Assembly (NCBI RefSeq): GCF_009914755.1
Contig: NC_060947.1
Origin: the human T2T-CHM13v2.0 reference genome, Homo sapiens
Direction: 5' to 3' (one strand)
DNA length: 64,000 nt
Notes under the pieces: model-generated
Seen by the model: only the letters and a program-made list of their open reading frames with translations
Told to the model about the DNA's origin: nothing
Databases searched by the model: none
In this document: positions 16,795-44,330 of the stretch, one piece after another
Position numbering within the stretch: position 1 is the stretch's first letter
Layout of the letters: each line of letters opens with the position of its first letter
Translations under genes and position numbers: made by a program

Positions 16795-17575
16795 GGCAGA
16801 CTAGTGCAAGCATCTCAGGTTCCAAGCGCAAGGGCAGGTTGGTGGCCCGAAGGTCCCCAAAACCCTAGTGTACTGGCATGCTGGTGGTCAGAAAAGCCCC
16901 TTGGGGCATCAGCATGAAGGAAGGAAGTGGCTGGAAGGGCCCCCTGGGGCTACAGTATGAGGTCCAGACAGAGGCTGGAAAGGACTTTGTTTCCACAGCA
17001 CGTGAGCAGGTAGATGGCCAGAAGGGCCCGGGTTCCCCAGCGGATGGGCATGGTGGTGGCTAGAAACCCCAACAGGTTATACAATGATTGAAAGGGCCAC
17101 TGGGTCCAGAGCTAAGCGGTGGGTCAGTGACTGGAAAAGACCCAGGGTCATCAGTATGTGGCATGCATGATTGCTAATAGGGCCTGAAGTTCTACAGACC
17201 ACAGACAGGCTGCTGACCAGAAAGGACCCTGGGGTACTAGCGCCCAGGAAAAATGTTGGTTGGAAGGGCAACAAGGTCTGAACATATGGCTTCCCTGGTG
17301 GCTGGAAGGGACTCCGAGGCTCCAGCCGGCTGGACAGTTGGTTGCTGATAAGGCTGTAGGTTCCATACCACACAGGCAGGTTGGTGACTAGAAGGAAGGC
17401 CTGGTTGCCAGAACAGGAGAAGGATGGCCGCCAAAGCCCTTGGTTCTCTAACTTGTGGGCAGCTCAGTGGTAGAAAACTGAAACAGCCCAGTTACTTCAG
17501 TGTGGGATGGAAGGTGACTGGAAGGACCCAAGTTTACTCAACACATAGGCAGAGTGGTGACTGGAAAGTCATGTC
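16795..17575 (+). repeat. GC-rich degenerate tandem array, left segment (~42-44-bp monomer)
   Basis: The GAA of the core ggtggccagaaggg recurs at 16849, 16891, 16934, 16978, 17021, 17063 and at 17220, 17263, 17305, 17347, 17390. Confidence 0.85.
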
Positions 17576-17997
17576 CAGGGCAAGAAAAAGCATGTCTGGA
17601 AATTAATACAGAAAGACTTTAACCAGGACTATTGGAATGGGAAAAGGAGGACAGTTGCACTAGGGATATGCTCAAAGCCTAATGTAGAAACATCTCAGGG
17701 AAGGAGTAGGCAAGCAAAGCTTTTATATGCAGATACCATGGGATAGGTGGCTGTGGAAGGAGGAAGTGAGTGCTACAACTGCTAGCCAGAGGGCTTGAAA
17801 TTACACAACTGTATAAAATATTGCAATAAGGAGCATGTTGAGGCAAGAAGTGTTTGTGTTTAAGCACAAGGCAAAGGTTTGGGACTGAGATGAGCAAAGC
17901 AGTTATAGTGCAGGATGTTCCCATAAAAATTAGCATCGAGCTGTCCTAGTCAAGTCAGTCTAGTTAAGTCAAGCACAAAGTTTCACCAATCTTGTCA
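17572..17997 (-). mobile_element. ERV1-type 3' LTR
   Basis: Minus strand begins TGACAAG directly after a purine tract (gaaaaaagagcagg); resembles the LTR at 4205-4630. Confidence 0.65.
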
Positions 17998-18937
17998 GTA
18001 CCTGCTCTTTTTCAAGACAGACTCAGCCAGAGACTGTTCTTGAACAACTCAAGGATAAGGGGAACCAGAAACAGGGAATAGCTAAGTGAAATAATCCTCA
18101 GGGTAAATGTTTTCTTGGTGGGGTTGTCCCTGTAGGACCAGTTGAACCATCTGTTGGGCCAGCTGGCAGAGCTCAGTTGTTTTAGGGTCTTGCAGTTGAG
18201 GCATCTTAAAAGAGTGATACCCAAAATGAAAATGATACGTGCTATTATAAAAGGTTATATGAAAGTAAACAGCCAGGAGTTGAGCACTAAGGGTATCCAG
18301 TTAAGCAAATTCCAAGAGGCTGATGGATGAAAATCTTTTGATTATGCAGCATTGCTCTTTGAGCTTCTGGTACTCTTGGTAATGTTGTTCACAGTATTTG
18401 TAACCTCACTTATAAGGACATGCATTGCATGATCATTCTACCAGACTTTCTTAGTGTCTCAGACACTTGTCCAGTGAGAAATCCTACCCATGCATAGTCT
18501 GCCAGTAATGAATCCTTTAAGGTATATATCAAGTTGTTTGGGCTTTAAGTAACAGTGCTCCTTCAGATCCTGGGGAAAAGGACAGCGATGGGTTTACTTG
18601 AAGTCCCTATAAGGATCTGGGTAGTCATGTTTTAGTTCTTGGTGATGCCAAGGTAAGAAGGAGGGAAAAAAATTGAAAATGTTACTTTGAAGTAATGTAA
18701 CCAGATATTGAAAGAAACTGGAAGAATGGAAAATTTGGTATGGGTTGACAATTTAGAATCTAATCCAATTTATAGATAGGTAACAAAACTGTTTTCTCCC
18801 ACAGTGGGAATAAAAGTCAATTGAATATCTACCAGACAAGATAGAATTTGCATATCCATCAGTTACAAAGAGGGAAGAAGTAGCTCAAAGACAATGAAAA
18901 GGACCAAAATCTGATAATCCATAAAGGTAGGCTGTAG

Positions 18938-20450
18938 TTTTTTTATTGTATATTTTTAAAGTGTGCAACATGATGTTTTGATATAGATGTACATAGTGAA
19001 GTAATTACTATAGTCAAATAAATTAACATCTGTATCTCACATAGTTCCCTTTCTTTTTTGTGTGGTAATAAGTACCTAAACTTTACTCTCTTAGCAAATT
19101 TCCAATATACCATACAATATATTAACTAAAGTCCTCATATTGTACATTAGCTCTCTAGGCTTATTCATCTCACATAAATGCAACTTTGTACCCTTTGACC
19201 TATGTCTCCCCATTTCCCCTACTCCCCCATTCCTGGTAACCATTTTTCTACTCCCTGTTTCTATATATTCAATTTGTTTGTTTTAGATTCCTCATTAATG
19301 AGAGATTGTGCGGTATTTTTCTTTCTCTGTCCTGCTTATTTCACTTAGCATAGTATCCTCTAGGTTCATCCATGTTGTCACAAATGGCAGAATATCCTTT
19401 TCTAGGGCTGAACAACCATATGAATATTATTCAGACTTAAAAAAGGATACTCTGCCATTTGTTCATAATCTTACGGAATTATGTATATATACACACCACT
19501 ACTTTTTTATCCATTATATATCAACAGAAATTTAGGTTATTTGCATATCTTCATTATTGTGAATAATGCTGCAGTGAACAAAGAAGTGCAGATACATTTA
19601 TAAAGTTGTGATTTGATCTCCTTTGAGTATATACTCAGAGGAGTGACTGTTGATTCATATGGCAATTCTCTTTCTAGATTTTTGAGAAACTTACATATTA
19701 CATTCCAAAATGGATATAATAATTTACATTTCCACCAACAGTGTACTAGAGTTGACTTTTATTCCACACTCTTGCCAACACTTGCTGGCTCTTTTTTTTT
19801 TTTATAATAGTCATCTGTATTAGTCAGTTCTAGCATTGCTATAATTTATTTTTTTTAAAGAGGTTTAATTGGCTTACTGTTCTGCAGACTGTACAGGAAA
19901 CGTGATGCTGGTATCTGCTTGGCTTCTGAGGAGGTCTCAGGAAACTTACAAACAGGGTGGAACGCAAAGCAGGAGCAAGCACCTCACATGGCTGGAGCAG
20001 GAGGAAGAGAAAGAGGGTGGAGGTGATACACATTTTTAAACAACCAGATCTCACAAGCACTCACTCACTATCATGAGAGTAGCATCAAGGGGCAAATCCA
20101 CCCCCAGGATCCAATCACCTCTCACCAGGCCTAACCTCCAACATTAGGGATTACAATTGAACATGAGATTTGGGTGAGGTCACAGAGACAAGCAATATCA
20201 CCATCTTAACAGGTTTAAGGTGATATCTCATTATGGTTTGATTTGCATCACTCTGATAATTAGCGATGTTGAGCACCTTCTCCCATACCTGTTGGTCATT
20301 TATGTTTCTTTTGGAGAAATAGCTATTCAGGTCTTTTTCCTATTTTTAAGTTGGGTTATGGGTTTTCTTTCTATTGGTTAGTATGAGTTCCTTTTATATT
20401 TTTAATATTAACCCCTTATCAGATACACAGTTTGCAAATGTTTTCTTTAT
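18938..20450 (-). mobile_element. L1MA-type 3' portion
   Basis: Antisense L1 3'UTR and ORF2 end (cttatttcacttagcatag...catgttgtcacaaatggcag...ccaacagtgtactagag). Confidence 0.9.
19816..20200 (-). mobile_element. MST (MaLR) solo LTR inside the L1
   Basis: tgtattagtcagttctagcattgctata...caatatca; TSD tcatc/ccatc. Confidence 0.9.
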
Positions 20451-20689
20451 TTTGTTGTTTTGTGGCGTGAAAATTCCAGTAATGTCAATCAAAAAAGTTT
20501 TATACAAAATATCTATAACATGATTAGCCTTCTTTTCAAAGAAGAGTGAATATCTCATTCATTAAAATGAATAAGCACAATCATTAAACAGAAAAAAATC
20601 TTCAGATGTGTAAGAATCCTGAGACATAACACACCATAAGTATATCAGGTATTTGGTTAGAATATACCAAGAGTGTATCAAGGATATCA

Positions 20690-20792
20690 AGTAAAGAGAT
20701 TCAGTCAGTCTGGAGTAGGTCCTAAACAACAGTAAATGAAAACTCCACAGGTTAGTGATGTGAATCCCCAGTTGACAACCACTGGTCTAGAA
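20690..20792. mobile_element. MER5A-like fragment
   Basis: gattcagtcagtctggagtaggtcc...agttgacaaccactggtctaga matches the MER5 terminus. Confidence 0.55.
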
Positions 20793-21335
20793 CATACTAG
20801 ATTCAATATTAAGAGGTAAAATTGTGACCAAGTTAATGTTTTTAAAAATAATTAAACTTATCACTAATAACACTATACTGTTGTCTAATATTAGGTGAAA
20901 TAACACCAGGACTCTGATAAATAGAAACATCATGGACAGCAAGGATGTGGAAAATTCTCTAGGAACTTCATATAATTTCTGAAATATTTATGTTAATAAC
21001 ATTTTACCCAATAAAGATTTAACCTGGGAAAGGCTAAATGTCTCTTCTGATTTTACAACCCTTCCTATGCAACTCACAACATTTCAAATAAACCTAATTA
21101 TTTCTAGTATTTCCCTTTGAACAAGGTGAAAGAACAACTCCTTTGTGATTTTCCAGGGACCTTCTGGGATGCAAAGGAAGTTTTAGGTGCTAAAGATAAC
21201 ATTTAAGATCTAGTTTCAGGAAGATAAAATGCCAAAATTTGTCAGGAGGTTTGAACACTATATTAAATAAAATCATGGGTGAGTGGAAAACAATACTTGG
21301 TTACTTATTTAATCCAAATGACAATGAAAAATTTA

Positions 21336-21572
<237 letters not shown>

Positions 21573-22359
21573 TTAAATAATCAGGGACATGATAAAGTCA
21601 ACACAAAGCATCAGAAATTACTCTGATAAGACACAGACTATTTAGCATCAAAGTAGAATACTCAGAAAGCAAAGAAAAACCTTTTACAACCTCTTAAGAG
21701 AAGACCAGTAGTTCAAGAAAATATTGTCATTTTAAGAAAGAAAAGCGAATTCCAGTTTTGTATCAGTACATTTGACACTAAAGTGCTTTCTAAATATTAT
21801 AAATAAATGTATCAACCTTTGTTTTGACCACAGCAAAATTCCCTTTCTATGACTTTTTATAACTTTTTGTATCTATTCAGGTTTTATCCTATGCTTTTTT
21901 CTTTCCCATTCTGGAACAGTTTTTTGACTTAGGACAAAACTATTCTCTTTTTCTTAATACAAATATGTTCTGCCTACCTTGCATATGTACAGTATGTTGA
22001 TTATAACTTTTACCATTGGTAATTCTGTTTTACAAATAAACTTGGAGGTGGATAACTGTGAACTGTCTGACATACATTGGCATTTTATAGCAAACTAGCA
22101 AAACTTCAAGATATACATGTAACAACTTTTTGTTGTTGTTGTTACACAAAAGATATAGTACTACATCCTTAAAGTACAATTTCTTAGTTTGGCAAAAATG
22201 AAAACATACATTAACAAATCCATATATATGTGCTTACAATTATTTATAATACTAGTTCAGTATTTTGTCTCATTTTTAATGATCTAGGTATGTAATAAAT
22301 ATTTATTAAATAATTTAGATAAGTCTAGGGTTTTCAGTTACCTAAACAGCTTGAAACTA

Positions 22360-22680
22360 TCTTTTTTTTTATTTGTATAAATTTGAAGGTACAAATTTTG
22401 TTACATGGATGCATTGCATAGTGTAGTGGAGATGTCTGGGCTTTTAGTATGACCATCACCCTAATAATGTACACTGTACCCATTAAGTAATTTCTCATCC
22501 CACTTTCCTCTCCCTCCTCATCTTACAACAGTCAGAATGGCTACTATTAAAAAGCCACAAAATAATAGATGTCGGTGATAATTCAGAGAAAAGGAAACAC
22601 TTATACATTGTTGGTGGTAATGTGAATTAGTACAACCTCTCTGGAAAACAGTATAGCGATTTTGCAAAGAATGAAAAATT
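22360..22680. mobile_element. L1 insertion with inverted 5' piece (3' end on -, ORF2-end piece on +)
   Basis: Poly(T) plus antisense 3'UTR at 22360-~22518 is joined directly to a sense ORF2 C-terminal segment (cagtcagaatggctactattaaaaag...). Confidence 0.75.
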
Positions 22681-24656: not shown

Positions 24657-25033
24657 TGTGTTAGTCCGTTTTCAGACTGCTGTAAACACATACCTGAGAC
24701 CGGGTAATTTATAAAGAAAAGAGTTTTAATTGACTCACAGTTCCGCATTGCTGGGGAGACCTCAGGAAACTAACAATCATGGCAGAAGGCAAAGGGGAAG
24801 CAAAGACTTTCTTCACATGCTGGCAGGAAAGAGAGATTGAGTGTGTGAGCACAGGAAAAACTACCATTTATAAAACCATCAGATCTCATGAGAATTCACT
24901 CACTATCATGAGAACAGCATTGGGGGTAACCGCCTCCATAATCCAATCACTTCCCACCAGGTATCTTCCTCAACACCCGGGGATTACAATTCAAGATGAG
25001 ATTTGGGTGGGAACACAAAGCCTAACCATATCA
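24657..25033 (-). mobile_element. THE1D/MSTA solo LTR
   Basis: tgtgttagtccgttttc...aaccatatca with perfect TSD ggatt. Confidence 0.92.
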
Positions 25034-25508
25034 GGATTCTTTAGGATTGTCTACATAAAGGATTATGTCATAAGCGAATACAGATAGTTTTGATTCTTCC
25101 TTTTCAATTTGGATGCCTTTTATTTCTGTTTCTTGTCTAAATTCTTTGGCTAGAAATTCCAGTAAAATGTTAAATAGCAATGGTGAAAGCAGATATCCTT
25201 GTCTTGTTTTTGAGCTTAGGGGAAAGCTTTCAGTCTTTAACCATTGAGTATGAAGCTAGCTGGTTTTTTTTTTTAAATAAACATACTTTATTATGTTGAA
25301 GAAATTCTCTTCTCTTCCTAGTTTTTTGCGAATTCTTATCATGAAGAATTGGTGAATTCTTTTCATGTCGATGGAGATGATTATGCATTTTCCCCTTTGT
25401 TCTATTAATCAGATGTATTAGATTAATTGATGTTCTTATGTTGAACCACTCTTGCATTTCTGGGTTAAATTCCACTTGGTCATGGTTTATAATCCTTTAA
25501 ATGTGCTG

Positions 25509-26845
25509 TAAGAGACAACCTAGAATGGGAATGATATGGTTTGGCTGTGTCCCCACCCAAATCTTACCTTGCATTGTAATAATCTCCACGTGTCAAGGGT
25601 GGGGCCAGGTGGAGATAATTGAATCATGGGGGCAGTTTCCCCCATACTGTTCTTGTAGTAGTGAGTAAGTCTCATGAGATCTGATGGTTTTGTAAGTGGG
25701 AGTTGCCCTGCACTAGCCGTCTTGCCTGCCACCATGTAAGACGTGACTTTGTTCCTCATTTGCCTTCTGCCATGATTGTGAGGCCTCCCCAGCCACGTGG
25801 AACTGTGAGTCAATTAAACCTCTTCCCTTTATAAATTACCCAATCTCAGGTATGTCTGTATTACCAGCATGACAACAGACTAATAGAGGGAGAACAATTT
25901 TGAAAACTGTGCATCTGATAAAAGTCTAATATCCAGCATCTATAATATAAGGTATGTAAACAAATTTACAAGAAAAAACTAAACAACCCAATTAAATATT
26001 GGGCAAAGGACATGAACAGACACTTCTCAAAAAAAGACATTTATGTGGCCAACAAGCACATGAAAAAAAGCTTAACATCATTGATCATTAGAGAAATGCA
26101 AATCATAACCATAATGAGATACCATGTCATACCAGTCAGAATTGCTCTTATGAAAAAGTCAAAAAATAACAAATGCTGACGAGGTTATGGAGGAAATGGA
26201 ATGCTTATACACTGTTGGTAGGACTGTAGATTAGTTCAAACATTTTGGAAGATAGTGTGGTGATTTCTCAAAAACCTAAAGACAGAAATATTATTTGACC
26301 CAGTACTCCCATTACTGAGTATATACCCAAATAAATATGAATTATTCTAGTATAAAGACATATGCACACGTATTTTCATTGCACCACTGTTCACAGTAAC
26401 AAATACATGGAATCAACAAAAATGTCCATCAATGATAGACTGGATAAATAAAATGTGGTACATATATGCCATGGAAACCTATGCAGCCATAAAAAAGAAT
26501 GAGATTATGTCCTTTGCAGGGTCATGGATGGAGCTAGAGGCCATTATCCTTAGCAAACTAACGCAGGAACAGAAAACTAAATATTGCATTATCTCACTTG
26601 TAAGTCGGAGCTAAATGATGAGAACACATGGACACATAGGGGGAACAACACCCACTGGGGCCCATTGGAGGGTGGAGGGTGGGAGGAGAATCAGGAAAAA
26701 TAACTGATGGATACTAGGCTTAATACTTGGGTGATGAAATAATCGGTACAACAAACCCCCATGACGTTTACCTATGTAAGAAACCTACACATCCTGCACA
26801 TGTAACTTTTATTTGAAAAGTTAAAAAAGTAAAAAAAATAAAAAG
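25509..26845 (+). mobile_element. 5'-truncated L1PA (older primate) inserted into the L1M
   Basis: Sense ORF2 end (WINKMWYIYAMETYAAIKKNEIMSFAGSWMELEAIILSKL), 3'UTR and A tail. Confidence 0.92.
25532..25887 (+). mobile_element. THE1 solo LTR inside the L1PA
   Basis: tgatatggtttggctgtgtccccacccaaatc...cagactaata; TSD gggaa/gggag. Confidence 0.93.
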
Positions 26846-27003
26846 TGTGATGTCGAATTTGACTTGCTAGCATTTTGTTGAGACTTTTGCAGCTATATTC
26901 ATAAGGGATGCTGGTCTGTAGTTTTCTTTTTTTGGTGATAACATTATCTCGTTTTGGTATCAAGGTAATGTCAGCCTCCTAGAGTGAATTAGAAAGTGCT
27001 CTC

Positions 27004-28880
<1,877 letters not shown>

Positions 28881-29447: not shown

Positions 29448-30900
<1,453 letters not shown>

Positions 30901-32527
30901 ATGTGCTCCAGTTGACACAGCAGGCAATAGGCTGATGGCACAAAAAAAAAAAAAAAGAAAAAAACACTCCTTGGATTAGCAGCATGCCAGCAGTGTATAG
31001 CAGGAAGAAGGCCAGAACCCTCCTAATGGAAAGTCTGGTGCCTGAAATGTTCCCTGGAGCACTAATTTGTTGAACAGTAGCCAAATGTCTCTTGATTTAT
31101 TCACTTGTAAGGCAGACTGAGGTCCAAAAGACCCTATGGTACCCCTAGGAGAGGCCAGTACTGTGACCTAAAATGCTGTCATTTCTACTACCCATGGATA
31201 GTCTGGTGGCCAAAGAACCCTAGGTTCTCCAGACAGAGGATGGGCTGGGGACAGGCAGAGATACCCCAACCCTACATTTTGAGGAAAAACTGGTGGCCTG
31301 AAGTTTTCCCGACACACAAGCACTCTGGAGGTAGAGTGGCCGAAAGGGTTTCCAAGGCACCACTGTGCTGGGATTTCCAACAGGTCCCTAATTCCATAGT
31401 AATGGATCTAGTGCCCATAAGGTCTCACTGGAATCTAATGTGTGGGCAGTCTGGTCTCCGAAAAGGTCCATGGGGGCATAAATACAAGGGGAGAATGTGT
31501 CTGGAAGTTCTCCAGGGTACCAGCGCACTGTCCAACACATGTCTAGAAGAGCCCCAGAGTCCTAGAGGTAGGGGTGTACTCAGTGCCCAACAGATTCTAG
31601 GCTTCACAACCTATAGAGAAGGTTGTGGTCCAAAAGCTATCGCAGTTGCCCAGCGTGCAGACAGGGTGGGGACCATGAAGACCCAGAGGCCCTTAAAGAC
31701 CAAGCCATCTGGTGTTCAGAAAGTTCCCGGGGACAGAATTTATGGGAAAGTCAGTGACCAAAGAGTTCCAGTTGCCATTACAGATGGGCTAGCTGAGGGC
31801 TAAGAGGGTCATTGGTTCCCTGGAGCCATGCCTGTGGGGAAGAGAAGGGTTTTCCTTTCCACATCATATGTGCAGGCTAATTGCTGAAGAACCTTTGGTT
31901 TCCAGGCACACAGGATGATTCTGGGCCAGAAGGAACTCCAGAACCCTAGCAAGCGGGCATGCTGATGGTCAGGTATTTTCACAGGTCCTCTCGATAGGAG
32001 AAGGGTGGACACTTGGTGGAAAAAAGGGCCCAGAGTACTCCTGCAGTGACCTGTACTGTGACCCAACATGACCCAGTTTCAACAACAGGCTTGCAAAATG
32101 ATGACTGGTGAAAACTCAGGCCCTTGGCATGCTTGTGTATTGTGTGCCAGAAGGAAATCCAGAAATGTCTAGAGCTGAAAGGGCCTTCATGACACTACTG
32201 TGTTAGGAGTACAGGGCCAAAATGGGCACCAGTATGCTGGAAGTATGGTTCTCAAAAAGGCTGTACATTCCACCACACAGGGTCTGACTACTGTTAACCA
32301 CCCACAGAACTCCAGTGCATGGGCAGTCTGGTCACCAAAAGGGCTTACTGGGCAGCAGTGCCAGGGCAGATGGTGTCCAAAAGTATGATCTTAGGCACCA
32401 GTGAGGTGACAGGCTCATGTCGGGAAGAGTCCTGGACCTTGAAAGGGTACATTAGACCCAGGCGGAAAGACCTGGTCCTGCTGACAGTCTAGTAGGAGGA
32501 ACGCAGGTTCCATCACATAAAAGAGCT

Positions 32528-33085
32528 AGAGATGAATGGAGAAAGAAAATGTAATGTGGTACTTATAGACAATGGAGTACTATTCAGCCATAAAAAGAAT
32601 GAGTTTCTTTTGCAAGTCATTTGCAACAACATGAATGGAACTGGAGATCATTATGTTGAGTGAAATAAGCCAGGCACAGAAAGACAAACATCTGATGTTC
32701 TCAGTTATTTGCAGAATCTAAAAATCAAAGTAATTGAACTCATGGACATAGAGAGCAGATTGATGGTTACCAGAGGCTGGGGGTGGTAGTTGTGGGCTGG
32801 GGTGAGGTGGGGTTGGCTAACGGTTACAGAAAAAAAGAGAAAGAATAAATAAGACCTTCTATTTGATAGCACAATAGAGTGACTATAGTCAACAATAATT
32901 TAATTGTACATCTTAAAATAACTTAAAGAGTGTAATTGGATTGTTTGTAACTCAAAGGATAAATGTGTGAGGGGATGGATATCCCATTCCCCATGTTGTG
33001 CATGTTTGTATCAAAACATCTCATGTACTACATAAATATATACCCCTACTGTGTACTGAAAAAAATTAAAAAATAAATAAATGAT
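32528..33085 (+). mobile_element. L1MA (L1MA1-3-like) 3' end inserted in the array
   Basis: caatggagtactattcagccataaaaagaatgag...taattggattgtttgtaactcaaaggataaatg followed by an A tail; the array resumes in register afterwards. Confidence 0.9.
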
Positions 33086-35758
33086 TTTGTTTTAACAAAA
33101 GAAGGATCCCTGGACACCCCTGTGAGGGACAGACGGTGGCCAAGAGGCCTCAAAACTCCCAGGCTTGTGGACTTCCTGAACGCATGAAGGGCTAAGGGTT
33201 CCTGTGGCAGATGTCAGTGCCCTGACCATAATCACTCTCCTTCCATTGCAGGCAGGCCGGCAGGTAGCTAAAGAACCCGAGGTTCCCCAGCACACAGTCA
33301 GATGTGCTAGAAGGAATTCCAGAACTCAGGGAGTTGGTGAGCCTTGTGACCAGAAACTTCCCCAAGTCACCACCGTGATGAAGGTGTATCAGTCAAAGAT
33401 GCCCTAAATCACGAGCTTTCTGGATGGATTGTTGACAATAAGGCTCTAAATTTCACAGTGCAGAAGACAGCTGGTGTATAAGCATCCCTTGTAACCTAGT
33501 GTGAGGCTTTCTGGTAACTAAAAGGTCATCCAAGGCACAATGCAAGGGGACACTGTGTCGAAGGGCCTTTGGGGCACCAATTTGTTTCCAGGCACATGTC
33601 TGTAAAAGCCATGGGGCCACAGAAGCTAAGATGGGCCAAGGCTGAAAGTGCTTTCAGTTCTACATCTCGCAGGATGTTTGATACTCCACAAAATCTTGTT
33701 TCCCTAGCACAAAGTCAGGCTGGAAGCAGAAGGACCCTGGGGACCCTCATGAGAAGGACTTCTGCTGGCCAAAACTTTCCCCAGGACACCAGTTTGGTGG
33801 CCAGACAGTGAACAAAATGGCTCTTGATTCCTCTGCTTATGTGCTGTCTAAGGGCTGATAGGATTCATGGTTTCCCTATGGTTGGTCTATGCTATGGCCA
33901 AAAGTGCTCTCATTTCCACAGCAGACAGCAGCTGATTACAGAAACTCCTTGATTCCCCAGTACATGAACAAGGTTTGGCCAATAGAAAACCTGAAACCCT
34001 AGGTGGCTGAAAATTCAGTGGTTGTTAAGGTTCCCCAGAACACCAGTGAAAGGGAGTGGAGATATGGTGACAGAAATGGCTCCCTCACACCAGCACTCTA
34101 GACTGATTGTTGCCAATAGGGCCTTATATTCCAATTTTTGTGCCTCCATAGCACAGGAGGAGGCTGGTGTTCATAAGTGCCCCTAGAAACCTATTGTGAG
34201 GGTTATCTGGTCACCAAAAGGGCCCCAAAAGGACCTTGCAGCAGTGCATGGGCAGAAGTTTCCGGAAGAGCCCTGGGGAGGCAGAGGGTGGGATGATACA
34301 AAACTGGAAGAGTTCCATATCAGACAGGATGGCTAATAGCCAATGATCCCTGTTTCCAAACACACAGGATTTAGTAGAGGGCAGAAGGCCCCCTTGGACA
34401 CTAACACATGAGAAGTACCTTGGCCAAAAGGGTACTAATGTCCACAGCACACAGGCTGGCTTATGGCCAACAAGGTCTTGTGTTCCATGGCACAAGAGCA
34501 CGCTAGTGTGCCCATAAGTGCCCCCAGGAACCCAGTGTGTGGGATGCCTGGTTGCTAAACAGGTGAGTAGGACATCGGTGTAAGGGCAGGAGTCTCTAAA
34601 AGTGCCCCTGAGGCACAAGTGTGCTGGTAGGCTTGTGTCCAGAGGAATCCCAGGGACAAAGAAGGTGGAATGACCAATGTCCAAAGGGCCCTGGGTTCCA
34701 CAGCCTATAGAGACACTGATGGTCAAAACAGTACGTAGTTCCCTAGCACACAGGCAGGCTATAAGGACCTGTGGAACCGCAGTGGGAGGGCTGGCTGGTG
34801 GTTGGTATGTTGCTAGAGATACCAATGCATGGGAAGGACAGTGGAAAAGGGTTCTAGATTCCACAACACAGAGATTGACTGAAGGCCAGAAGGGCCCTTG
34901 GTTCCCCAGTGAGAGACCTGTGCTGTGAACTGAAAAGGTTCTAGTTTCTGCATCACATGGGCAGGCTAGTTGCTGAAGAACCCTCAGTTCCCTGAAAAGA
35001 GGACAGAATGGGGGCCACAAGGAAACCACAAACCCTAAATAGTGGAAGGTCACCAGAGCAATGGAGGTACAGTGTCCAAAAAGGCCTCAGAGCACTAGCA
35101 TTCTGAATGGGCTTACTAATAGAGCCAATGTTGTATGGCAGGGGAGTTGGCTAGTGACTATACAAACCTCCAGGATACCAGGGAGGAGCAGTCAGGTCAC
35201 TGATAGAGTATCTAGGGCACCAGCTCATGGGGCAAACCATGATTGGAAGTACCCTCAGGGTACCAGCACCAAGTCAGGCATGTGTCCCTAAGCGTCCCTG
35301 TGCATAACGGGGATCAAAGTTAAAAGGGATCTAGGTTCCATGACAGTTCAGACTGCTGGTAGCCCTGAATCTTTATACCCTCAATACAAAGGCAGGCTGT
35401 GGAGGTTGGTGAGGTGAAAGGACTCTGGAAACCCTAATGGGCAGGCTGACTGGTGGTCAGAAGGTTCCCCAGTTCTGTGGACAGACCGCAGGTGAAAAGG
35501 TTTGCTTCCTCAGCTTGTGGGCTAGCAGAGGATCTGCAGGGCCCACAGTTCTGCAAGAGGCCAATACTGTGACTGAAAGTGTTCTCTTTTCCACAGCAGG
35601 CACCAGGCTGATCCCCAAAGAAACCTCAATCCCCCGGCAAACAGACAAGCTGGGTGACAGAAGGAAGCTAGGCACCCTTGGTGACAGGATGGTTGGTGGC
35701 TGGAAGGTTCCCCAGGGCACAAGTATGCTGGAGGTTTAGTAACAGAACAGGGCCCCAT

Positions 35759-36062
<304 letters not shown>

Positions 36063-36069
36063 AGGGTCT

Positions 36070-36503
36070 TGTGTTAGTTTGCTAGGGTTGCCATAATAAA
36101 ATACCACAGACATCATGGCTTAAACAACAAAAATTTATTTTCTCACAGCTCTGGAGGCTGGAAGCCTAAGATCGGAGTGTTGGCAGGTTTGGTTTCTTCT
36201 GTGGGCTCTCTCCCTGGCTTGCAGATTTCTGGGCTTGCAGATTCCTTGACTTGCAGCCTTCTCAATGCATGCCCTCACTTGATCTTTCCTCTGTGTGTAC
36301 AGGTTTGTGTTCAAATTTTCTCTTCTTATAAGAATATTATCATCTTATATGACATTAAATCATATAGGATTAGGGCCCAGCCATATGACCTCATTTTATT
36401 TTAGTTACTTTAAAGACCCTGTCTCCAAATACAATCATATTCTGAGATACTGGGGGTTTGGACCTAAACATGAATTTTGGAGGGCACAACTCAGCTCATA
36501 ACA
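36070..36503 (-). mobile_element. MLT1 (A0/B/C-like) solo LTR inserted in the array
   Basis: tgtgttagtttgctagggttgccataataaaataccacaga...ggcttaaacaacaaaaatttattttctcacagctctggaggctggaag...cagctcataaca. Confidence 0.9.
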
Positions 36504-37355
36504 TACCCCCTTGTACAAACAATCTGGATAAATGGTTGTCAATGGGGTCCTACATTTTACAGCACAGGAACAGGCTAGTGCCCATAAGGGTCCCTAAGAC
36601 CCCTGTGAATGGGCAGTCTTGTCACCAAAAAGGCATCCGGGGCACCAATGCGGGGACAAACTTAGACTGGAAGTGCTCTGCCAACACCCTGCAAGCCACG
36701 TGTCAGTTAAGAGTCTCAAATCTGAAGAAGGTAGAATAGACTGAGGAAGAAAGGACTCTCAGTTCAACAGCAGGCAGGGTGCTAGTCAGAAGAGTACTTG
36801 GTTTGTTACAATCCAAACTCCCAGCAGAAACTAAGTACAAACAGACTTGTACCTAAAAGGACCCATAGATGCTATGGAGCAGGCTGGCTGGTATTTGATA
36901 GTTCCACAAGGATGTTAATGAAGGGATGTCAGTGGCTAAAAGGGTACTAATTTTCATTGCACACTGGCTAGTTAAGGATGGAAAAGGCCATCGAAAGGAA
37001 AGGCACAAGGCCTATTCAATGACCAAAAGGATTCTGGTTTCATCCCACTGGAAGACTAATGGCCGAATAACCTTTGGTTCTGCAGTGTATAGACTCAACC
37101 GGAGCTGAAATGACCCCTGGATAGCATGCCGATGGGAAGTGGCTGCCTGAAAGTTTCCCCTGAGCAGGAGTATTAGGAGTATGGTGGCCAAAAGGGGCAT
37201 CAGTGTGCTCAACAGCTGGCTGCCAATTGGAAAAATATTTCACAGCACAGAAGCAGGCTAGTGCCTATAAAGGCCCCCATACTACCAGAATGTGGGTAGT
37301 CCTCTTGCTGAAGGGGCATCAGGACACCAGTAGATGGGCAAACTGTATTTAGATG

Positions 37356-37613
37356 TTCTGCCCCTTACTAAATCCTGTGTGTTTGGAAACAGGGATCATT
37401 GGCTATTAGCCATCCCGTCTGATATGGAACTCTTCCAGTTTTGCATCATCCCACCCTCTGCCTCCCCAGGGCTCTTCCGGAAACTTCTGCCCATGCACTG
37501 CTGCAAGGTCCTTTTGGGGCCCTTTTGGTGACCAGATAGCCCTCACAATAGGTTTCTAGGTGCACTTATGAACACCAGCCTCCTCCTGTGCTATGGAGGC
37601 ACAAAAAATTTGG
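37356..37613 (-). repeat. Inverted near-identical copy of 34131-34386
   Basis: Reverse-complement match with about 4 internal substitutions plus end differences; the same peptide (TKSCVFGNRDHWLLAI...KVLLGPFW) appears in ORFs on opposite strands. Confidence 0.95.
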
Positions 37614-40600
37614 TCACCAGCATTGTGCCAAGCAAGTGTCCAGAATGGCACCAAGGTAGCACAGGATGAGATGGAGTGATGCCCAAAAGGTTGTGGATTC
37701 CACAGCAGATTGGACAGCCTATGAACCCTCATATCACCAACACAAAGACAGCCAGGGAAAAATAATTGGAATCCTAGGGGGCAGGCTGACTGTTGGTCAG
37801 AAGTTTCTCTAGGGCACCAGCTCCATGGATGGATGGTGAACAAAATGGCTTTTGCATTCTCAGCTTGATAGCTAACTGAGAGCATGTAGAAGTCATAGTT
37901 TCCTATCTGGAGGCCAGTAATATAACTAAATGTGCTCTTGTTTCCACAGCATGCAGAGGAAAAATTGGCAAAGAGCTTTCAGTACCCTAGCATGCAGGCA
38001 ACCTGTGAGCCACAAGGAAAGCCAGAACTCTAAGGAGCAGGAAATATGGTGACTAGGAAGTTTCTGCAGGGCACATCCCAGATGGAGATGCACTGGTAAA
38101 AAGAGGCCTGTGCATCTGCGTTCTGAATGGATGTTTGTCAATAGGGCCCCGTATTCCACCACATGGGAGCAGGTTATTAGGGCTACCCTGGCACCCAATG
38201 TGGAGGCAGTCTGGTCACAGGGTACAGAGGGCAGCAGCGCCAAGGCAGAATGTTTCTGGAAGTGATTCTGGGGTGCCAGCGCCCTAGCTGGTACAGGTAC
38301 GAAGAAACACCCAGGGTCCTAGAGTTCAGGATGACTGGATGCCAAATGGCACAGATCCACAGCATGTGAGGGAAAGTGATGGTCAGAAGGGTACACAAGA
38401 GAGGTAGGGATGGTCCAAAGGGGTCTGTGTTCCCAGACCTATAGAAAGGGTGATTGATGATCAGAGGGTATGTGGTTCCCCAATTCTTCAGGCAGTCTAG
38501 AAGCCATTAGGACATGTGGAATTCCAGGGGCCAGGACAGCTGGTGTTCTAAAGTTCCCCAGGCACACTAACGTGGGGAGGGAAGCGACTGAAAGAGTTCT
38601 AGGATTCATTGCACATGGGGTAGTTGAAAGCAGAAAGAATCAATGGCTTGCCAGTGCGAGGCCTGCCAGAGGCCAGAAATATTTTGGATTCTGACTTGTG
38701 CAGGCAGGCTGGTGGCTAAAGAACCTTCCCAAGCACGCTCAATGACTTGTGACAGGAAGGAGTCCCGAAATCCTAATGAGGGAAGATTCACCAGGTTATT
38801 CACACCAAAAGATTAACTGTGTGGGGCCCTGAACAATCACCAGAACTTTAGCAGGAGGTCAGACTGTTGATAGGAGGATTCCCCAGGGCACACTCGTGAG
38901 GGACAGATGGTGGTCAAGAGGGATCATGATTCCTGAACTTTTGGTCTGCCTGAAGGCGCAAAGAGTTCATGGTTCCCTTGCAAGATGGTAAGGCTGTGAC
39001 CAAATAGTCTCTTTTCCACCTAGGATGGGCAGGCTGGTCCCTAAAGAACCCTTGGTTACCGAGGGCATACACAGCTAAGGGCTGACAGGAAACCTGGGAC
39101 CATAGTTGGCAAGAAATATGATGGAGGTTCCCCAGGGCACTCCAAAGATGGAGATGTGATTGCAAAAAGAGGCCCCTGTGTCCCAGGGTTCAGGATGGAT
39201 GGTTGCAAATAAGGCCCTGTGTTCTACTGTACAAGTGAAGGCTAGTGCCCGTAAGGGCTCTCCTGAACCTAGTGTGCAGGCAATCTGGTCCCAGAAAGGA
39301 CCTGGAGTGCCAGTTCCCTAAACAGCACATGTACAGAAGAAGAGCCCATGGGTTCATATAGGTCGGAATGGGGATGGATATGATGCCTAAGGGGACTGAA
39401 TTTCCCAGTTCGCAGTGTTGGGGTGAGCACAGGGGACATAAGGACACACAGAACCATAGTGGCAGGCCCAGATGGCTATAAAAAGGTCCCCAGGGACACT
39501 AATGAGTGGGAAAGAACTATACCAAAAGAAACCTTGGTTCCATCACAAGCAGTGTAAGGTAGGACAGGAAAGACCATTAGGATCTTGATGCTAGGCCTGC
39601 CCAGTAAGTGGAAAGAATTCTGGATTCTACATTATGCAGACAGGCTGGTGGCTGAAGAAACTTTGATTCCAAGGAAACTCTGATGACTCTGGGTCAGAAG
39701 GTGCTACAGAACCCCAGCAGGGCCCACATAGGGGATCAGACATTTCCCCAGGGTACCCACACGGTTAGCTTAGTAGGGGAAAAGGACAGTGGCCGAAATG
39801 ACTTATCCGTGAAAGCAGAGTACCAAGGCTTCCCCACTATGAGGTGTATAGGGTGACTAAACTTGCTCCAGTTCCAACAGCAGGCAGGAAAACTCATGAC
39901 CAAAAACCTCTCAGAACCCAAGCATGGCCAGGCAGGGAAGAACCCAGAAACGTTATGGCCAGAAAGGCCCTGAAGTCACTAACACCATGAAGTAAAGGTG
40001 CCAAAAGGGGTCCCCGATCTCTAGAGTCTTGTTACCATGATTTTCAATTAGGGCCACATATTCCATAGTATGTGATCTTGCTGTGGCCCATAGGACCCCA
40101 GTTCACAGTCAGTCTAGACGCAAAAAGATTTCCCAAAGTAGCAGCGCTGGGGCAGATGGTGTCCCGAAGTCCTCTGTCCCTGCCCCTGGCACCACAAAAG
40201 GAGCTGGCATATGTCCAAAAGGATCCTGCGGTGTAAGAGGTTGAGATGGACCCAGGTTGAAAGGCCTAGTCCTGCTGATGGCCCTAGTAGGAGAAGCCCC
40301 CGTTTCCACCCTAAAAGGATTGTATGAGGACATGAAGGATCCCTGGAACGCTGGCGAGAGCAGAGATTGGTGGCTGGAAGCTTCCCTGGGGACACCCACA
40401 AGAGGGACAGACAGTAGCTGAAAAAATCGTGATTCCTGAGATTGTGAATTCACTCAGTGCCTAAAGGACTCGTGGTTCTCCCGCAAAATGCCAGTGGCCC
40501 GATGGTAAATGCTCTTCTTCCACCAAAGGAAGGCAGACTTGTCACAAAAGAAACTTAGTCTTCCCAAGGACATTAACATGTGGGTAGTCCAGTGACTGAA

Positions 40601-41941
40601 ATGATTTCAGCCTCAATTCCATACATGGACTAGCTGAGGAGCAGAAGAAACATAAGTTCCCCTGGCCTGTCCAGTGATCAAAAGGATTCTGGAGTCTGAA
40701 TCATTCAGGTGGGTTGATGGCCAAAGAACCTCTGTTTCTGAGGTACATGAGATAATGGGGCCAGAAAGAGCACTGGAACCCTAAATGAAGGGGCACATCT
40801 GTGGTCAGATTCACCAGGATATACGCACCGGGGGAAGGATGGTGGTAGGGACTAAAGGATCACCAGAACCCTGGTGAGCAGTCAGACTATGGATAGGAAG
40901 ATTCTTAGGGGTATTTGCAAGGCACAGACAGTGGCCGAGAGTGGTCATAATTTCTGAACTTGAAGCTTGGCCAAAGGCAAGAAGAGCTTATGGTTCACTT
41001 GCCCGATGAAAGTGCTGTGACCAAAAATGTGCTTCTTTCCAGCTCATGCAGGTAGGTTGTTCACCCCTAGGGGCTGGAGGCCAACAAGAAACCTGGAACC
41101 CTAGCTGGCAGAAGTATGATAACCAGAAGGTTCCCCAGGGTACCACAAAGAGGGAGGTATGGTAGGGAAGTGGTTCTGAAAGGATGGTCACTAACAAGAC
41201 CCTGTGTTCCACACAAGGGTGCAGGTAAGTGCCCATAAGTGCTCTCCTGGAACCCAGTGTGAAGGCAGCCTGGCTTCATAAAGATTCTACAGGGCAGCAG
41301 TGTCCTGGATGGCACGTGTTCAAAAGAATCCTAAATATCCTGAATGTCAGAACGGAGATGGACAAATGCCCAGGTGTCTAGATTCCACAGCCTAAAAAAA
41401 GTATGATGGTCGCAAGTATACATTGTTCCCCAGCTGATGGGCAACCAGTCTACAGACTGTAAGGACACAGGGAACCATAGACATTAGCCCAGAGGGTGAT
41501 GGGAAGGTCCACAGGGATTCTTGGTACCACTGCAAATGGGGTCACAGGACTGGAAGGGCCATAGGTTTCCTTCCCCAAACCTCTCCCCAAAGGCCTGTCC
41601 TTTCCCTGGGGCAGCCACAAGAGGGGCAGATGGCTGCTAGTGCTCATAATTCCTGAAATTGCAGCTAGCTCAAGGCCTGAAGAACTCACTTCTTCCCTGT
41701 CCTAAGTCAGTACCCTAAATATAAATATAAATAATACAAATGCTCTCCTTTCACCACAGGAAGGCAGGTGGATCATATGATAACTCTCATTTCCCCAGAG
41801 ACACAGGATACGCGACAGCAGGAATCTAAAAACCCTAGCTGGTGAGAAGTCTAGTGGCCAGATGGTTTTGAGGCAATGCCCTGGTAGAGGGGCAGTGGAG
41901 AAAAGGGGTCCCAGTACTAGAGTGCTGGATGGATGTCTTCT

Positions 41942-42353
41942 TGTATTAGGCCGTCCTGGCACCGCTATAAAGAAATACCTGAGACTGGGTAGTTTATAAG
42001 GAAAGAGGCTTAATTGACTCACAGTTCTGCAGGATGTACAGGAAGCATAGTGGCAACTGCTTCTGAGGAGGTTTCAAGAAGCTTCCAATTATGGCAGAAG
42101 ACAAAGGGGGAGCAGGCACATCACATGGTGAAAGCAAGAGTAAAAGAGAAAGAGAGTGGAGGGAAGGTGTCACACACTTTTAAAGGACCAACTCTGTGAA
42201 ATCGGGGCCACAGCTCACTTAACATCAAGGGGATGGCCCATTTATGAAGGATATGCCCCTTTGATCCAAATACCTCCCACCAGGCCCACCTCCAAATTGG
42301 GGAATACATTTCAACATGAGATTTGGGTGGGGACAAATATCCAAACTATACCA
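41942..42353 (-). mobile_element. MSTB-like solo LTR inserted in the array
   Basis: tgtattaggccgtcctggcaccgctataaagaaatacctgagactggg...gagatttgggtggggacaaatatccaaactata. Confidence 0.9.
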
Positions 42354-42899
42354 CTGCCTTTAGGGAATTGTGATCCATGGCATGGATGTAGGCTAGTGCC
42401 CATAAGGGCTATCTTGGAACGCACTGGGCAGACAGCCTGGTCTCAGAAAGGGCCTACATGGCATCAGCACCAGTGCAGAATGTATCTGGAAGTGCTCCTG
42501 GGGTGCCAGTGTCCAGGCAGGGTAAGTCCAGAATAATGGACAGAGACCTAGAGGTGGGGATGGACACAACGTCCAGTGGGCTCTGGGTTCTGAAGCCTGT
42601 AGGGAGGTGAGGGGTGCAAGGGTACAAGATGCCCCAGCTCACAGTCACACTGGCACCATAAGGATGCACGGAACCTAGGGACTGGGCCAGTTGCTGTTCA
42701 GAAAGTCTCCAGGAACACCAGCACGTGGGCAGGTATGTGATCAAAAGAGTTACAGATTCAATTGCATACAGGCAATGAAGATTGGACATGGCATAGATTT
42801 TTTTTCTAGCATCAAGCCTGCCTGGTAACTGGAAGGGTTCTGGATTCTGCATCATAGAGGCAGGCCAGTGGCCTACGAACCTCTGTTTTCCAGGCAACC

Positions 42900-44330
42900 C
42901 AGATGCTTCCGGGCCAAAAGGGGCCCTGGAAGCCTAGCAAGGGACCATGTCAGTGGTCAGAAGGTTCCTCTGAGCGCCCACACTGGGGACAGGGGTTGGG
43001 GGTGGGGGCGTAAGGGAAAAGGAAGGAATGTACGAGTACAGAGTGTGGCCAAAATTGCTCCAATTTCTGATCGCAAAGTCCCCGCAATATCCCAGTGTGA
43101 GGTCTGTACTTTCACCGAACTTGCACAGGTTTCTACATTAGAAGAATTTACGAGCAGAAAAACACCAGGTACCAAGCATGTCTGCGGACTGTAGGCAGGA
43201 ACGATCTCAGAAACTTTTAGGGCCGGAAGGGACCTCTTGACATCAGTGTCACGGAGTACGGCTGCCAAAAGGCGCCCCGTGGCAGCAACATGCTAGAAGT
43301 TTGGTTGCCAGTGGTGCCATATATTCCGCTGCACAAAAGCTGGTTAGGGTCCCTTGTTATCTCATGTCGTGGGCATTCTGGTCACAAAAAAAAAGGTTCC
43401 CAGGGCAGCAGTTCCTGGGTAGATATTATCCAACAGTGCCCTCCTCGCCGCCCCAATACGGTAGCAGGTATGTTATCTGGAAAAGTCCCAGGGTCTAAGA
43501 AAGCGAAATAGACTCAAACTGAAAGGACTCGTGCTACTTAAAGCCTAAAAGGAGCCCAGGGTTCCACCGCATGAGGACTGTCGGGGGGGGGTGTTAGGGA
43601 TCCCCGGAACCCTGGGGAGATGGCTAACTGGTCACCGGAAGATTCCAGGGCACCTGTGTGAAAGAGAGACGGTGGCCTAGTGGGCTCAGTATTCCCTAGA
43701 TTGCTGGATGACCCCGAAGGTTCTGAAAGGATCATATTTCCTCTGCAAGAAGCCACTATCGGTACTGGAAATGTTCTTTACATCGCTGGCGGGCCGGCGG
43801 GTTGCAGAACTTCTCAGTTCCCCAGTGCTCGCGCCGTCTTGTGGTAGGAGGCAACCCGGAACCCTAGCTGGTGGGAAGTTTGGAGGACAGAAGGTTCCCC
43901 AGGGTACTAGCCGGGTAGAATTAAGACCAAATGCGTTCCCTAAGCCCCCGCCTCCCCCTCCCCCCAACTCTGGAAGGATGATAGTAGATCCCTGTTACCC
44001 ACGGAAAGGAGCAGGTTATAACCTGTAAGGCACCCCTGGAAACCAATGCGCGTGCAGTCTGGTTTCAGAAAGGGCTCTTAGGCCCCCAGCGCCAGGACAG
44101 AAAGTGTCCGGAAGTGCTCTCAGATACGACTGAAGTGGCAGGTACAAGTCTGAAAGAGTCCTGGATTCTGAGCGTGAGATGGACCCAGGCCAAACGGGCT
44201 AGTTCTGCTGATAGCTCTGGGTTCACGGAAAGGGTCCCCCAAGGCCCTTCGTACGGGTGAGATGATTGCTGCCAGGGCCCTGGGTTCTTTTAGGCTGTCT
44301 TAGGTAAACAGTCTGATGCTTCCAAGGCCT
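42900..44330. promoter_or_regulatory. CpG-retaining candidate promoter formed from the terminal array units
   Basis: Visibly more CpGs than the rest of the window. GC box CCCCGCCTCC 43946-43955, CCAAT 44043-44047, NRF1-like TGCGCGTGCA 44047-44056, ETS CCGGAAGTG 44108-44116. Confidence 0.6.

What the first reader, a model, noticed from the sequence alone, without database searches (positions are those of the whole stretch)
16795..44290. Ancient three-tier GC-rich tandem array (~43 bp, ~0.65-1.1 kb, ~2 kb) of no family I recognise
Seen: a 42-44-bp monomer (by-eye consensus ggtggccagaagggccctggttccccagcacacaggcaggct) is cleanly periodic at 16849-17390. In 30.9-44.3 kb the monomers have diverged into a fixed order that repeats as a larger unit. 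The marker ctagtgcccataag...gggcagtctggtcacc..aaggg recurs about 14 times (31408, ~32300, ~33470, 34164, 34503, 36575, 37258, ~38170, 39242, ~40080, ~41226, 42393, ~43350, ~44015). Blocks ~38837-39300 and ~40860-41280 align at an offset of ~2.0 kb. All units face one way with a purine-rich + strand, and about 12 kb remains after removing TEs. Knowledge: monomer-to-higher-order evolution is typical of satellites and macrosatellites, but I cannot match this to alpha, beta, gamma, CER, SST1, D20S16 or SATR. Inference: an old, decayed, euchromatic macrosatellite-like locus, possibly the body of a repeat-rich lncRNA.
Basis: partly seen in the sequence, partly recalled or inferred. Interest (0 to 1): 0.85.

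Follow-up and report, generated by a model that had tools for sequence, protein, structure and literature searches.

The report
Ancient decayed 43-bp X-linked repeat arrays
About 13 kb of this X-chromosome window is a very old, worn-down tandem repeat of 43-bp units with a smaller sister array 3 Mb away; it looks like a neutral relic that standard repeat finders miss, not a working element.

Summary
A 43-bp periodicity is present at 16.8-17.6 kb and 31.0-44.4 kb and absent from the flanks. A profile built from the array hits 77 times in the 64-kb window, all inside those two stretches, 76 on the + strand. All 14 marker positions and the 2.0-kb block offset check out. Block-level homology is register-specific. 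There is no single higher-order period, only recurrent lags of about 0.69, 1.07, 1.68 and 2.02 kb. Copies are 58-71% identical, CpG-poor and interrupted by TEs.

New findings:
- The family is not single-locus. A 3.6-kb sister array lies 2.97 Mb distal.
- A 254-bp piece was recently copied in inverted orientation.
- The distal 1.25 kb keeps CpG o/e of about 0.5.
- TRF sees neither array.

I found no coding, Rfam, CTCF, YY1 or EBF signal. The array is intronic in the one predicted lncRNA model.

Best reading: a neutral relic of an early-mammalian GC-rich minisatellite. Dfam/Repbase and other mammals could not be checked.

The parts
16780..17600 (+). Block A: about 18 monomers of the 43-bp repeat. 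It is the best-preserved stretch (identity to consensus 0.68).
   Evidence: Lag-43 autocorrelation 0.38 against 0.258. R1 hits from 16779 to 17582. Cyclic EM alignment.
30950..32524 (+). Main array, segment 1 (about 35 monomers). Holds marker copies at 31408 and 32294.
   Evidence: 31408-32518 aligns to 42393-43572 over 1.2 kb, and the match is register-specific: 155 against at most 19.
32525..33060 (.). L1-like fragment inserted into the array. It is not copied with any block.
   Evidence: 76% identical over 542 bp to 46130-45609 outside the array. No R1 hits. The L1 label is my inference, because no TE library was available.
33061..35749 (+). Main array, segment 2 (about 60 monomers). Includes the most regular run, 34312-35022.
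34133..34386 (+). Source copy of the young inverted duplication.
35750..36170 (.). Alu-like insertion into the array.
   Evidence: 80-83% identical to other Alu-like copies at 27004, 48432 and elsewhere. Listed as masked at 35754-36168 in the hub's table.
36171..41937 (+). Main array, segment 3 (about 128 monomers). Contains the 2.0-kb reference unit 39236-41241.
37355..37609 (-). Inverted duplicate of 34133-34386, with 6 differences in about 254 bp and sharp junctions. It is the only minus-strand piece of the array.
   Evidence: 97.6% identity. Alignment A2. The only minus-strand profile hit. Also found by the genome search.
41938..42357 (.). Old interspersed element inserted into the array.
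   Evidence: 69-71% identical to 19857-20201 and 24751-25033.
42358..44420 (+). Main array, segment 4 (about 47 monomers). This is the distal end.
43000..44250 (+). CpG-retaining patch inside the array: CpG o/e 0.49-0.57, with 17-21 CpG per 500 bp.
   Evidence: The rest of the array has o/e 0.10-0.18.

Best explanation
This is the relic of a GC-rich, probably CpG-rich, 43-bp minisatellite that expanded in an early mammalian ancestor. About 288 monomers survive here.

Proposed history:
1. Replication slippage and unequal exchange first amplified the monomer.
2. Monomers then diverged, and unequal exchange at larger registers duplicated blocks of about 16, 25, 39 and 47 monomers. This produced an irregular higher-order mosaic.
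3. Homogenisation then stopped. Copies drifted to 58-71% identity, most CpGs were lost, and L1-like, Alu-like and other elements inserted.
4. A sister array 2.97 Mb distal descends from the same ancestral array.
5. A 254-bp piece was copied in inverted orientation much more recently.

Today the array most likely has no sequence-specific function and sits in an intron of a predicted lncRNA.

Shown: the periodicity, orientation, block homology, divergence, CpG loss, TE interruptions, second locus and inverted copy. Inferred: the age, the order of events, the mechanisms and neutrality.
For: Periodicity and extent.

Block homology. It is register-specific in 8 of 8 tested pairs. The true offset scores 50-155, and offsets shifted by 43k score at most 27, except one neighbouring register at 107.

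No single period. After TE excision the top lags are 2021, 1075, 1677 and 688, with no single comb period. This fits repeated unequal exchanges at varied registers.

Divergence. Block copies are 63-71% identical in global alignment, with ts:tv near 1. K2P distances are 0.37-0.52.

CpG loss. CpG o/e is 0.10-0.18 over most of the array. The TpG+CpA excess is 1.30-1.42 against 1.21-1.24 in the flanks.

TE insertions. None of the three has a second copy inside the array, so block duplication ended before they arrived.

Second array. It gives 27 R1 hits in L012 and 19 at E<=0.1 in L020, all on +. It has its own 42/43 autocorrelation peak and its own block duplication, with register score 151 against at most 54.

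Absence of functional signal:
- Rfam: 0 hits.
- Pfam: 0 credible hits in 15 open frames.
- CTCF-type sites: 4 against 3.85 expected.
- YY1-type: 1 site, and it lies in the Alu.
- EBF-type: 3 against 0.77 expected, with 6 of 100 shuffles reaching 3.
Against: - The distal 1.25 kb keeps CpG o/e of about 0.5, the densest CpG in the window apart from Alus. In DNA this old, that hints at germline hypomethylation and so at some activity. Array 2 shows a weaker rise in its 3' half (o/e 0.28-0.39).
- Neutrality was not tested. No other species, population or epigenome data were available.
- The pairs in the register tests were chosen after the fact from the best BLAST hits, which inflates the contrast.
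- The EM runs for all segments share one seed monomer.
- The longest stop-free frame (291 codons) exceeds all 300 shuffles (maximum 262). A repeated stop-poor unit explains this.
- Contiguity of block A with the main array is only plausible. At least about a third of 17.6-31.0 kb matches multi-copy elements, a share I added up from the query ranges listed, where only 39 of 114,477 candidates were scored.
Confidence: 0.7

Rival explanations
1. It is a working chromatin or regulatory element: a tandem platform for a DNA-binding factor, or a weak germline-unmethylated CpG island or promoter at the distal end. That would be comparable in principle with the X-linked repeats DXZ4, FIRRE and ICCE.
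For: The CpG-retaining patch at 43.0-44.25 kb has o/e 0.49-0.57. 200-bp windows there pass GC>=0.5 and o/e>=0.6. The family is on the X, has two loci in one orientation, and sits in a gene-poor region. That DXZ4, FIRRE and ICCE are large X-linked tandem repeats carrying Xi-specific H3K4me2 and making Xi-specific contacts comes from passages of PMC6088404.
Against: The recalled CTCF consensus has 4 sites within 2 mismatches against 3.85 expected, and only 1 is in the array. YY1-type sites number 1, in the Alu. Unit copies are 58-71% identical, so no uniform binding platform survives. Most of the array has CpG o/e 0.10-0.18. CpGs of the patch align to TpG/CpA in other copies in only 8 of 27, 13 of 32 and 9 of 18 cases, so retention of ancestral CpGs is not shown.
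Confidence: 0.12
2. The 43-bp array is the internal minisatellite of an ancient transposable element. The two X loci would be independent insertions that expanded in place.
For: The family occurs at more than one locus. The genome searches were too insensitive to exclude further decayed copies: 6 later probes failed even to cross-detect the two known arrays.
Against: The arrays share no non-array flank. The only flank matches are to common interspersed elements lying at least 0.7 kb from the array edges. Both arrays are on the same arm in the same orientation. Inter-array alignments are register-specific over up to 8 monomers (63 against at most 29), which fits duplication of an already differentiated array. 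Four DNA queries from the window array and one from array 2 found only their own locus.
Confidence: 0.13
3. It is the functional repeat domain of a lncRNA, or a relic of a repeat-coding gene.
For: The array lies within the span of the predicted lncRNA LOC105373151 (hub's table). Stop-free frames reach 291 and 230 codons, beyond all 300 shuffles.
Against: None of the 3 in-window exons overlaps the array (hub's table). The 43-bp period is not a multiple of 3, and the 129 harmonic is weaker than 43 and 86. 15 frames give no credible Pfam hit; the best is E 0.12, below its cutoff. Rfam gives 0 hits. No paper mentions the gene.
Confidence: 0.04

Closest known systems
Large minisatellite/VNTR arrays with irregular higher-order structure, such as the 61-bp pseudoautosomal Xp22.33 VNTR with HORs of 1.6 and 2.5 kb (Warburton et al. 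2008, PMC2588610; passages seen)
   Same: The unit is tens of bp, arranged head to tail in one orientation. Larger irregular periodicities of 0.7-2.5 kb sit on top of the monomer. The array is tens of kb or less and lies at one or a few loci.
   Different: Those arrays are well enough preserved for TRF to find. This one is invisible to TRF, its copies are 58-71% identical, and it is broken by TE insertions. It is a fossil of that kind of array.
X-linked macrosatellites and tandem repeats DXZ4, FIRRE and ICCE (described in PMC6088404, passages seen; DXZ4 is listed as 3.0-kb units at >99% identity in PMC2588610)
   Same: It is X-linked, GC-rich and kb-scale tandem, with a CpG-rich ancestry suggested by the TpG/CpA excess.
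   Different: Block identity is about 60-70%, not >99%. The recalled CTCF and YY1 motifs are not enriched. Most CpGs are lost. No DNA similarity to anything outside the two arrays was found in the own-genome searches.
Satellite higher-order repeats of the alpha-satellite type (textbook knowledge, recalled)
   Same: Monomers are differentiated into types that recur in a fixed local order, and block homology is register-specific.
   Different: In active HOR arrays the HOR copies are far more alike than the monomers are. Here blocks are almost as diverged as monomers, there is no single HOR length, and the setting is not centromeric.
Degenerate tandem repeats targeted by ULTRA (Olson and Wheeler 2024, PMC11580682; passages seen)
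   Same: It belongs to the class of repeats too decayed for TRF-style detection.
   Different: That paper describes a method, not a family. I did not see this locus named in the passages I read.

Membership tests
Minisatellite / VNTR | Unit of roughly 10-100 bp arranged head to tail | tested here: met
   The period is 43, with harmonics at 86 and 129. 76 of 77 profile hits are on one strand. There are about 288 monomers.
Minisatellite / VNTR | Copy-number variation between individuals | not testable with these tools
   Only one assembly was available. At 58-71% identity between units, ongoing unequal exchange seems unlikely; this is inference.
Macrosatellite (DXZ4 type) | Regular kb-scale unit repeated with high identity (>95% in Warburton's table) | tested here: not met
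   Block copies are 58-64% identical by BLAST and 63-71% by global alignment. There is no single period.
Macrosatellite (DXZ4 type) | CpG-island units with CTCF (and YY1) sites in each unit (feature recalled) | tested here: not met
   CpG o/e is 0.10-0.18 except in the distal patch. CTCF-type sites are 4 against 3.85 expected, with 1 in the array. The single YY1-type site is in an Alu. The motifs were recalled, and binding itself was not testable.
Satellite with higher-order repeats | Block-level homology that is specific to one monomer register | tested here: met
   In 8 of 8 pairs the true offset scores 50-155 against at most 27 in shifted registers, with one indel-drift neighbour at 107. 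The pairs were picked after the fact.
Satellite with higher-order repeats | HOR copies much more alike than the monomers within a HOR | tested here: not met
   Blocks are 58-71% identical, while identity of monomers to their consensus is 0.56-0.68.
Named human satellites (alpha, beta, gamma, CER, SST1, D20S16, SATR, MSR1, HSAT4) | Sequence match to the family consensus | not testable with these tools
   No Dfam/Repbase library was available. Indirectly, the period of 43 differs from CER 48, beta 68 and HSAT4 35. Own-genome DNA searches hit no other locus, but their sensitivity is low.
TE-internal VNTR (SVA-like layout) | Array flanked by shared TE body sequence at each locus | tested here: not met
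   The 3-kb flanks of array 2 match the window's array flanks only in common interspersed elements, none of them abutting an array.
lncRNA repeat domain (XIST or FIRRE type) | Repeats lie in exons of the transcript | tested here: not met
   Exons 1635-1760, 18805-18926 and 52161-52259 (hub's table) do not overlap 16780-17600 or 30950-44420. This rests on one predicted model only.

The most novel reading that the evidence does not exclude
An undescribed, X-linked, multi-locus family of early-mammalian 43-bp repeat arrays lies in the gene-poor stretch between a paired-class homeobox gene (ARX by my recollection of the map) and IL1RAPL1. Its CpG-retaining ends would be germline-unmethylated regulatory or architectural elements that selection has kept while the rest of each array decayed.
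Probability: 0.07. Interest if true: 0.6.

Novelty: new member of a known kind. Interest (0 to 1): 0.3.

Why it matters
Mostly it matters for annotation. About 16.5 kb of tandem-repeat-derived DNA at two X loci escapes TRF entirely, and word-seeded similarity searches treat it as unique sequence. Such fossil arrays can be mistaken for unique or conserved-looking GC-rich sequence, for CpG-island shores, or for long open reading frames; frames here reach 291 codons.

The locus also gives a datable example of how a minisatellite acquires and then loses higher-order structure. If the CpG-retaining patch proved to be unmethylated and bound, it would add a regulatory candidate to a region linked to X-linked neurodevelopmental genes. 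Nothing here shows that.

Tried and rejected
- TRF at default and at minimum score finds no 43-bp array at either locus.
- Iterating a single-monomer nhmmer profile eroded it to 26 positions, so I abandoned it.
- The first cyclic aligner slipped into the linear regime and swallowed the whole region. The recalibrated version labelled only about 3 kb at a strict threshold.
- Exact spaced patterns are useless here: no 7-mer recurs at 41-45 bp more than once. I therefore ran no pattern scan of the genome.
- The weak translated hits on chr6, chr21, chr1, chr2, chr11 and chr17 (L014, L015, L026, L030, L031, L039) carry 0 profile hits and are chance matches.
- The ±20 kb outside the window has 0 hits.
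- Coding origin is rejected.
- Known RNA families are rejected.
- A DXZ4-like motif content is rejected, as is an EBF-type site cluster.
- A single clean higher-order period is rejected.
- Retention of ancestral CpGs in the distal patch is inconclusive.
- The 42-bp VNTR at 11q23.2 listed by Warburton was not compared directly. No own-genome search hit that region.
Full report
OBSERVATION. Tandem Repeats Finder reports no array with a period near 43 in 14-47 kb at default settings, nor at its minimum score. The repeat is nonetheless real.

The fraction of identical bases at lag 43 is 0.38 against a median of 0.258 at 16795-17600. It is 0.308 against 0.254 (sd 0.0097) at 30900-44300, with harmonics at 86 and 129. 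The three flanking stretches show no such peak. In 254 sliding windows, 35 reach z>3 at lag 42-44, and 33 of those 35 lie in 16.5-17.75 kb or 30.75-44.0 kb.

It gave 67 hits at E<0.01, all in 16832-17582 or 31012-44114, 66 of them on the + strand. A sequence-only covariance model (R1, from alignment A1 of 18 units) gave 77 hits at E<=1. All 77 lie within 16779-17582 or 31021-44392, and 76 are on +. About 185 kb of other human DNA examined with R1 gave none.

This is partly circular, because 13 of them were seeds of the model. TE-free array length is 12,915 bp, and R1 hits at E<0.01 cover 36% of it. Cyclic EM alignment estimates about 288 monomers. Identity to the 43-bp consensus is 0.68 in block A and 0.56-0.60 in the main array, against 0.48-0.56 for shuffled sequence. 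All segments shared one seed monomer.

HIGHER-ORDER STRUCTURE. With sensitive settings it finds alignments up to 1.2 kb at 58-64% identity.

A plain monomeric array would align in every register. I therefore scored 8 of the best pairs at their true offset and at offsets shifted by 43k (k = 1 to 8 either way). The true offset scores 50-155. Shifted registers score at most 27, except one neighbouring register at 107 that reflects indel drift. The pairs were picked after the fact, but the contrast is large.

Mapping the window onto the 2.0-kb unit 39236-41241 puts 35 of 35 HSPs inside the array. It also shows internal repeats of that unit at about 1.07 and 0.52 kb. After excising the three TE insertions, the lag spectrum peaks at 2021, 1075, 1677 and 688 bp (47, 25, 39 and 16 monomers). 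No comb period stands out. The 'three tiers' are thus an irregular mosaic of block duplications.

COMPOSITION.
- GC is 0.49-0.55 in the array against 0.34-0.37 in the flanks, and the + strand is 55-59% purine.
- CpG o/e is 0.10-0.18 over most of the array. The TpG+CpA excess is 1.30-1.42 against 1.21-1.24 in the flanks. This fits decay of a once CpG-richer unit.
- The distal 43.0-44.25 kb keeps o/e 0.49-0.57, with 17-21 CpG per 500 bp. That is the densest CpG in the window apart from Alus.
- Its CpGs align to TpG/CpA in other copies in 8 of 27, 13 of 32 and 9 of 18 cases. That leaves retention of ancestral CpGs unproven.

INTERRUPTIONS. Three elements sit inside the array: an L1-like fragment (32525-33060), an Alu-like element (35750-36170) and an older element (41938-42357). 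Each has relatives only outside the array. The labels are my inference, because no TE library was available. None was copied with a block, so block duplication ended before they arrived.

The 13.4 kb between block A and the main array contains many high-copy elements: 114,477 first-look candidates, of which 39 were scored, with matches covering at least about a third of it by my addition of the listed query ranges. So block A may once have been contiguous with the main array.

One piece, 37355-37609, is an inverted copy of 34133-34386, with 6 differences in about 254 bp and sharp junctions. At 2.4% divergence I infer an age of some 10-25 Myr.

A SECOND LOCUS. Four DNA queries from the array found only this locus in the assembly. 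A translated query, the 291-codon stop-free frame of the most regular part, hit chrX:24,622,417-24,622,674 at E 2.4e-4.

That locus carries 27 R1 hits, all on one strand, and its own 42/43 autocorrelation peak. Across 80 kb fetched there, 19 of 19 hits at E<=0.1 fall in 24,621,359-24,624,952. This array has about 75 monomers at 0.64 identity to consensus and an Alu insertion. It also has its own block duplication: 936 bp at 61% identity at an offset of 755, with a register score of 151 against at most 54.

It resembles the window array at 60-70% identity over at most 351 bp. Those alignments are register-specific over up to 8 monomers (63 against at most 29). The non-array flanks share only common interspersed elements.

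Six further probes found no third locus, but they also failed to cross-detect the two known arrays. 'Two loci' is therefore a lower bound.

About 30 kb from array 2 lies an exon encoding the end of a paired-class homeodomain. The gene's CpG-island windows reach to within about 14-25 kb of the array. That this gene is ARX is my recollection of the map, not a tool result.

FUNCTION TESTS.
- Rfam: 0 hits in the window and in L020.
- Open frames: fifteen were scanned and none gave a credible Pfam hit. The 291-codon frame exceeds 300 shuffles (maximum 262), as expected for a repeated stop-poor unit.
- Recalled motifs: CTCF-type sites are 4 against 3.85 expected, with 1 in the array. The single YY1-type site is in the Alu. 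EBF-type sites are 3 against 0.77 expected, and 6 of 100 shuffles reach 3.
- Transcript: the exons of the one predicted lncRNA model miss the array (hub's table).

AGE AND MECHANISM (inference). K2P distances between block copies are 0.37-0.52, or about 0.19-0.26 per lineage, with ts:tv near 1. At recalled mammalian neutral rates of 1-2.2e-9 per site per year, this points to the order of 100 Myr or more. Optimal-alignment bias makes that an underestimate, and CpG hypermutability makes it an overestimate.

The simplest history has these steps:
1. Slippage and unequal exchange amplified a GC-rich 43-bp unit.
2. Monomers differentiated.
3. Unequal exchange at varied larger registers duplicated blocks.
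4. Part of the array was duplicated to a second site on Xp.
5. Homogenisation ceased.
6. Decay and TE insertion followed.
7. A small inverted duplication arose late.

COMPARISON AND NOVELTY. The closest kind is a large minisatellite with irregular higher-order structure, such as the 61-bp pseudoautosomal VNTR in Warburton 2008 (passages). This array is a fossil of that kind.

It does not meet the tested features of DXZ4-type macrosatellites, active HOR satellites, TE-internal VNTRs or lncRNA repeat domains (see the membership table). Six searches of the paper library found nothing on the locus or on LOC105373151. I read only passages of PMC2588610, PMC6088404 and PMC11580682.

Dfam/Repbase, other species, population data and epigenomic tracks were not available. 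Family novelty, age and neutrality therefore remain open. I rate this a new member of a known kind, of modest interest.

Noticed in passing
L020 1359-4952 (G000:C23:24,621,359-24,624,952): A sister array of the same 43-bp family lies 2.97 Mb distal on Xp. It is in the same orientation, has about 75 monomers, carries an Alu at L020 4389-4708, and has its own block duplication at an offset of 755 bp. TRF and the word-seeded DNA searches both miss it.
   Followed up: yes
window 37355-37609 (-) and 34133-34386 (+): A young inverted intra-array duplication: about 254 bp, 6 differences, sharp junctions, arms about 3.0 kb apart. Whether it was inserted or replaced array sequence was not resolved.
   Followed up: partly
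window 43000-44250: A CpG-retaining patch (o/e 0.49-0.57) at the distal end of an otherwise CpG-depleted ancient array. The 3' half of array 2 shows a weaker rise (o/e 0.28-0.39 at C23:24,623,001-24,624,000).
   Followed up: partly
L017 1347-1877 (-) (G000:C23:24,591,347-24,591,877): An open frame encodes the C-terminal end of a paired-class homeodomain (Pfam PF00046, profile positions 44-57 of 57, E 1.9e-4, just under the cutoff). Many CpG-island windows lie at 24,586,501-24,607,251. It is probably ARX by recalled map position.
   Followed up: partly
window 34211-35086 (-) and 31111-31803 (+); L020 2066-2926 (+): Stop-free frames of 291, 230 and 286 codons lie inside non-coding repeat arrays. 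They could be mistaken for genes. None has a Pfam match.
   Followed up: yes
window 24661-25033 and 25532-25883: An inverted pair of an interspersed element (75% identical over 378 bp) flanks about 0.5 kb. Copies of the same element lie at 7977-8344, 9972-10331 and 41941-42354.
   Followed up: no
window 25889-26844: An L1 3'-end-like fragment has many genomic copies at 80-84% identity (39 candidates scored out of 114,477).
   Followed up: no
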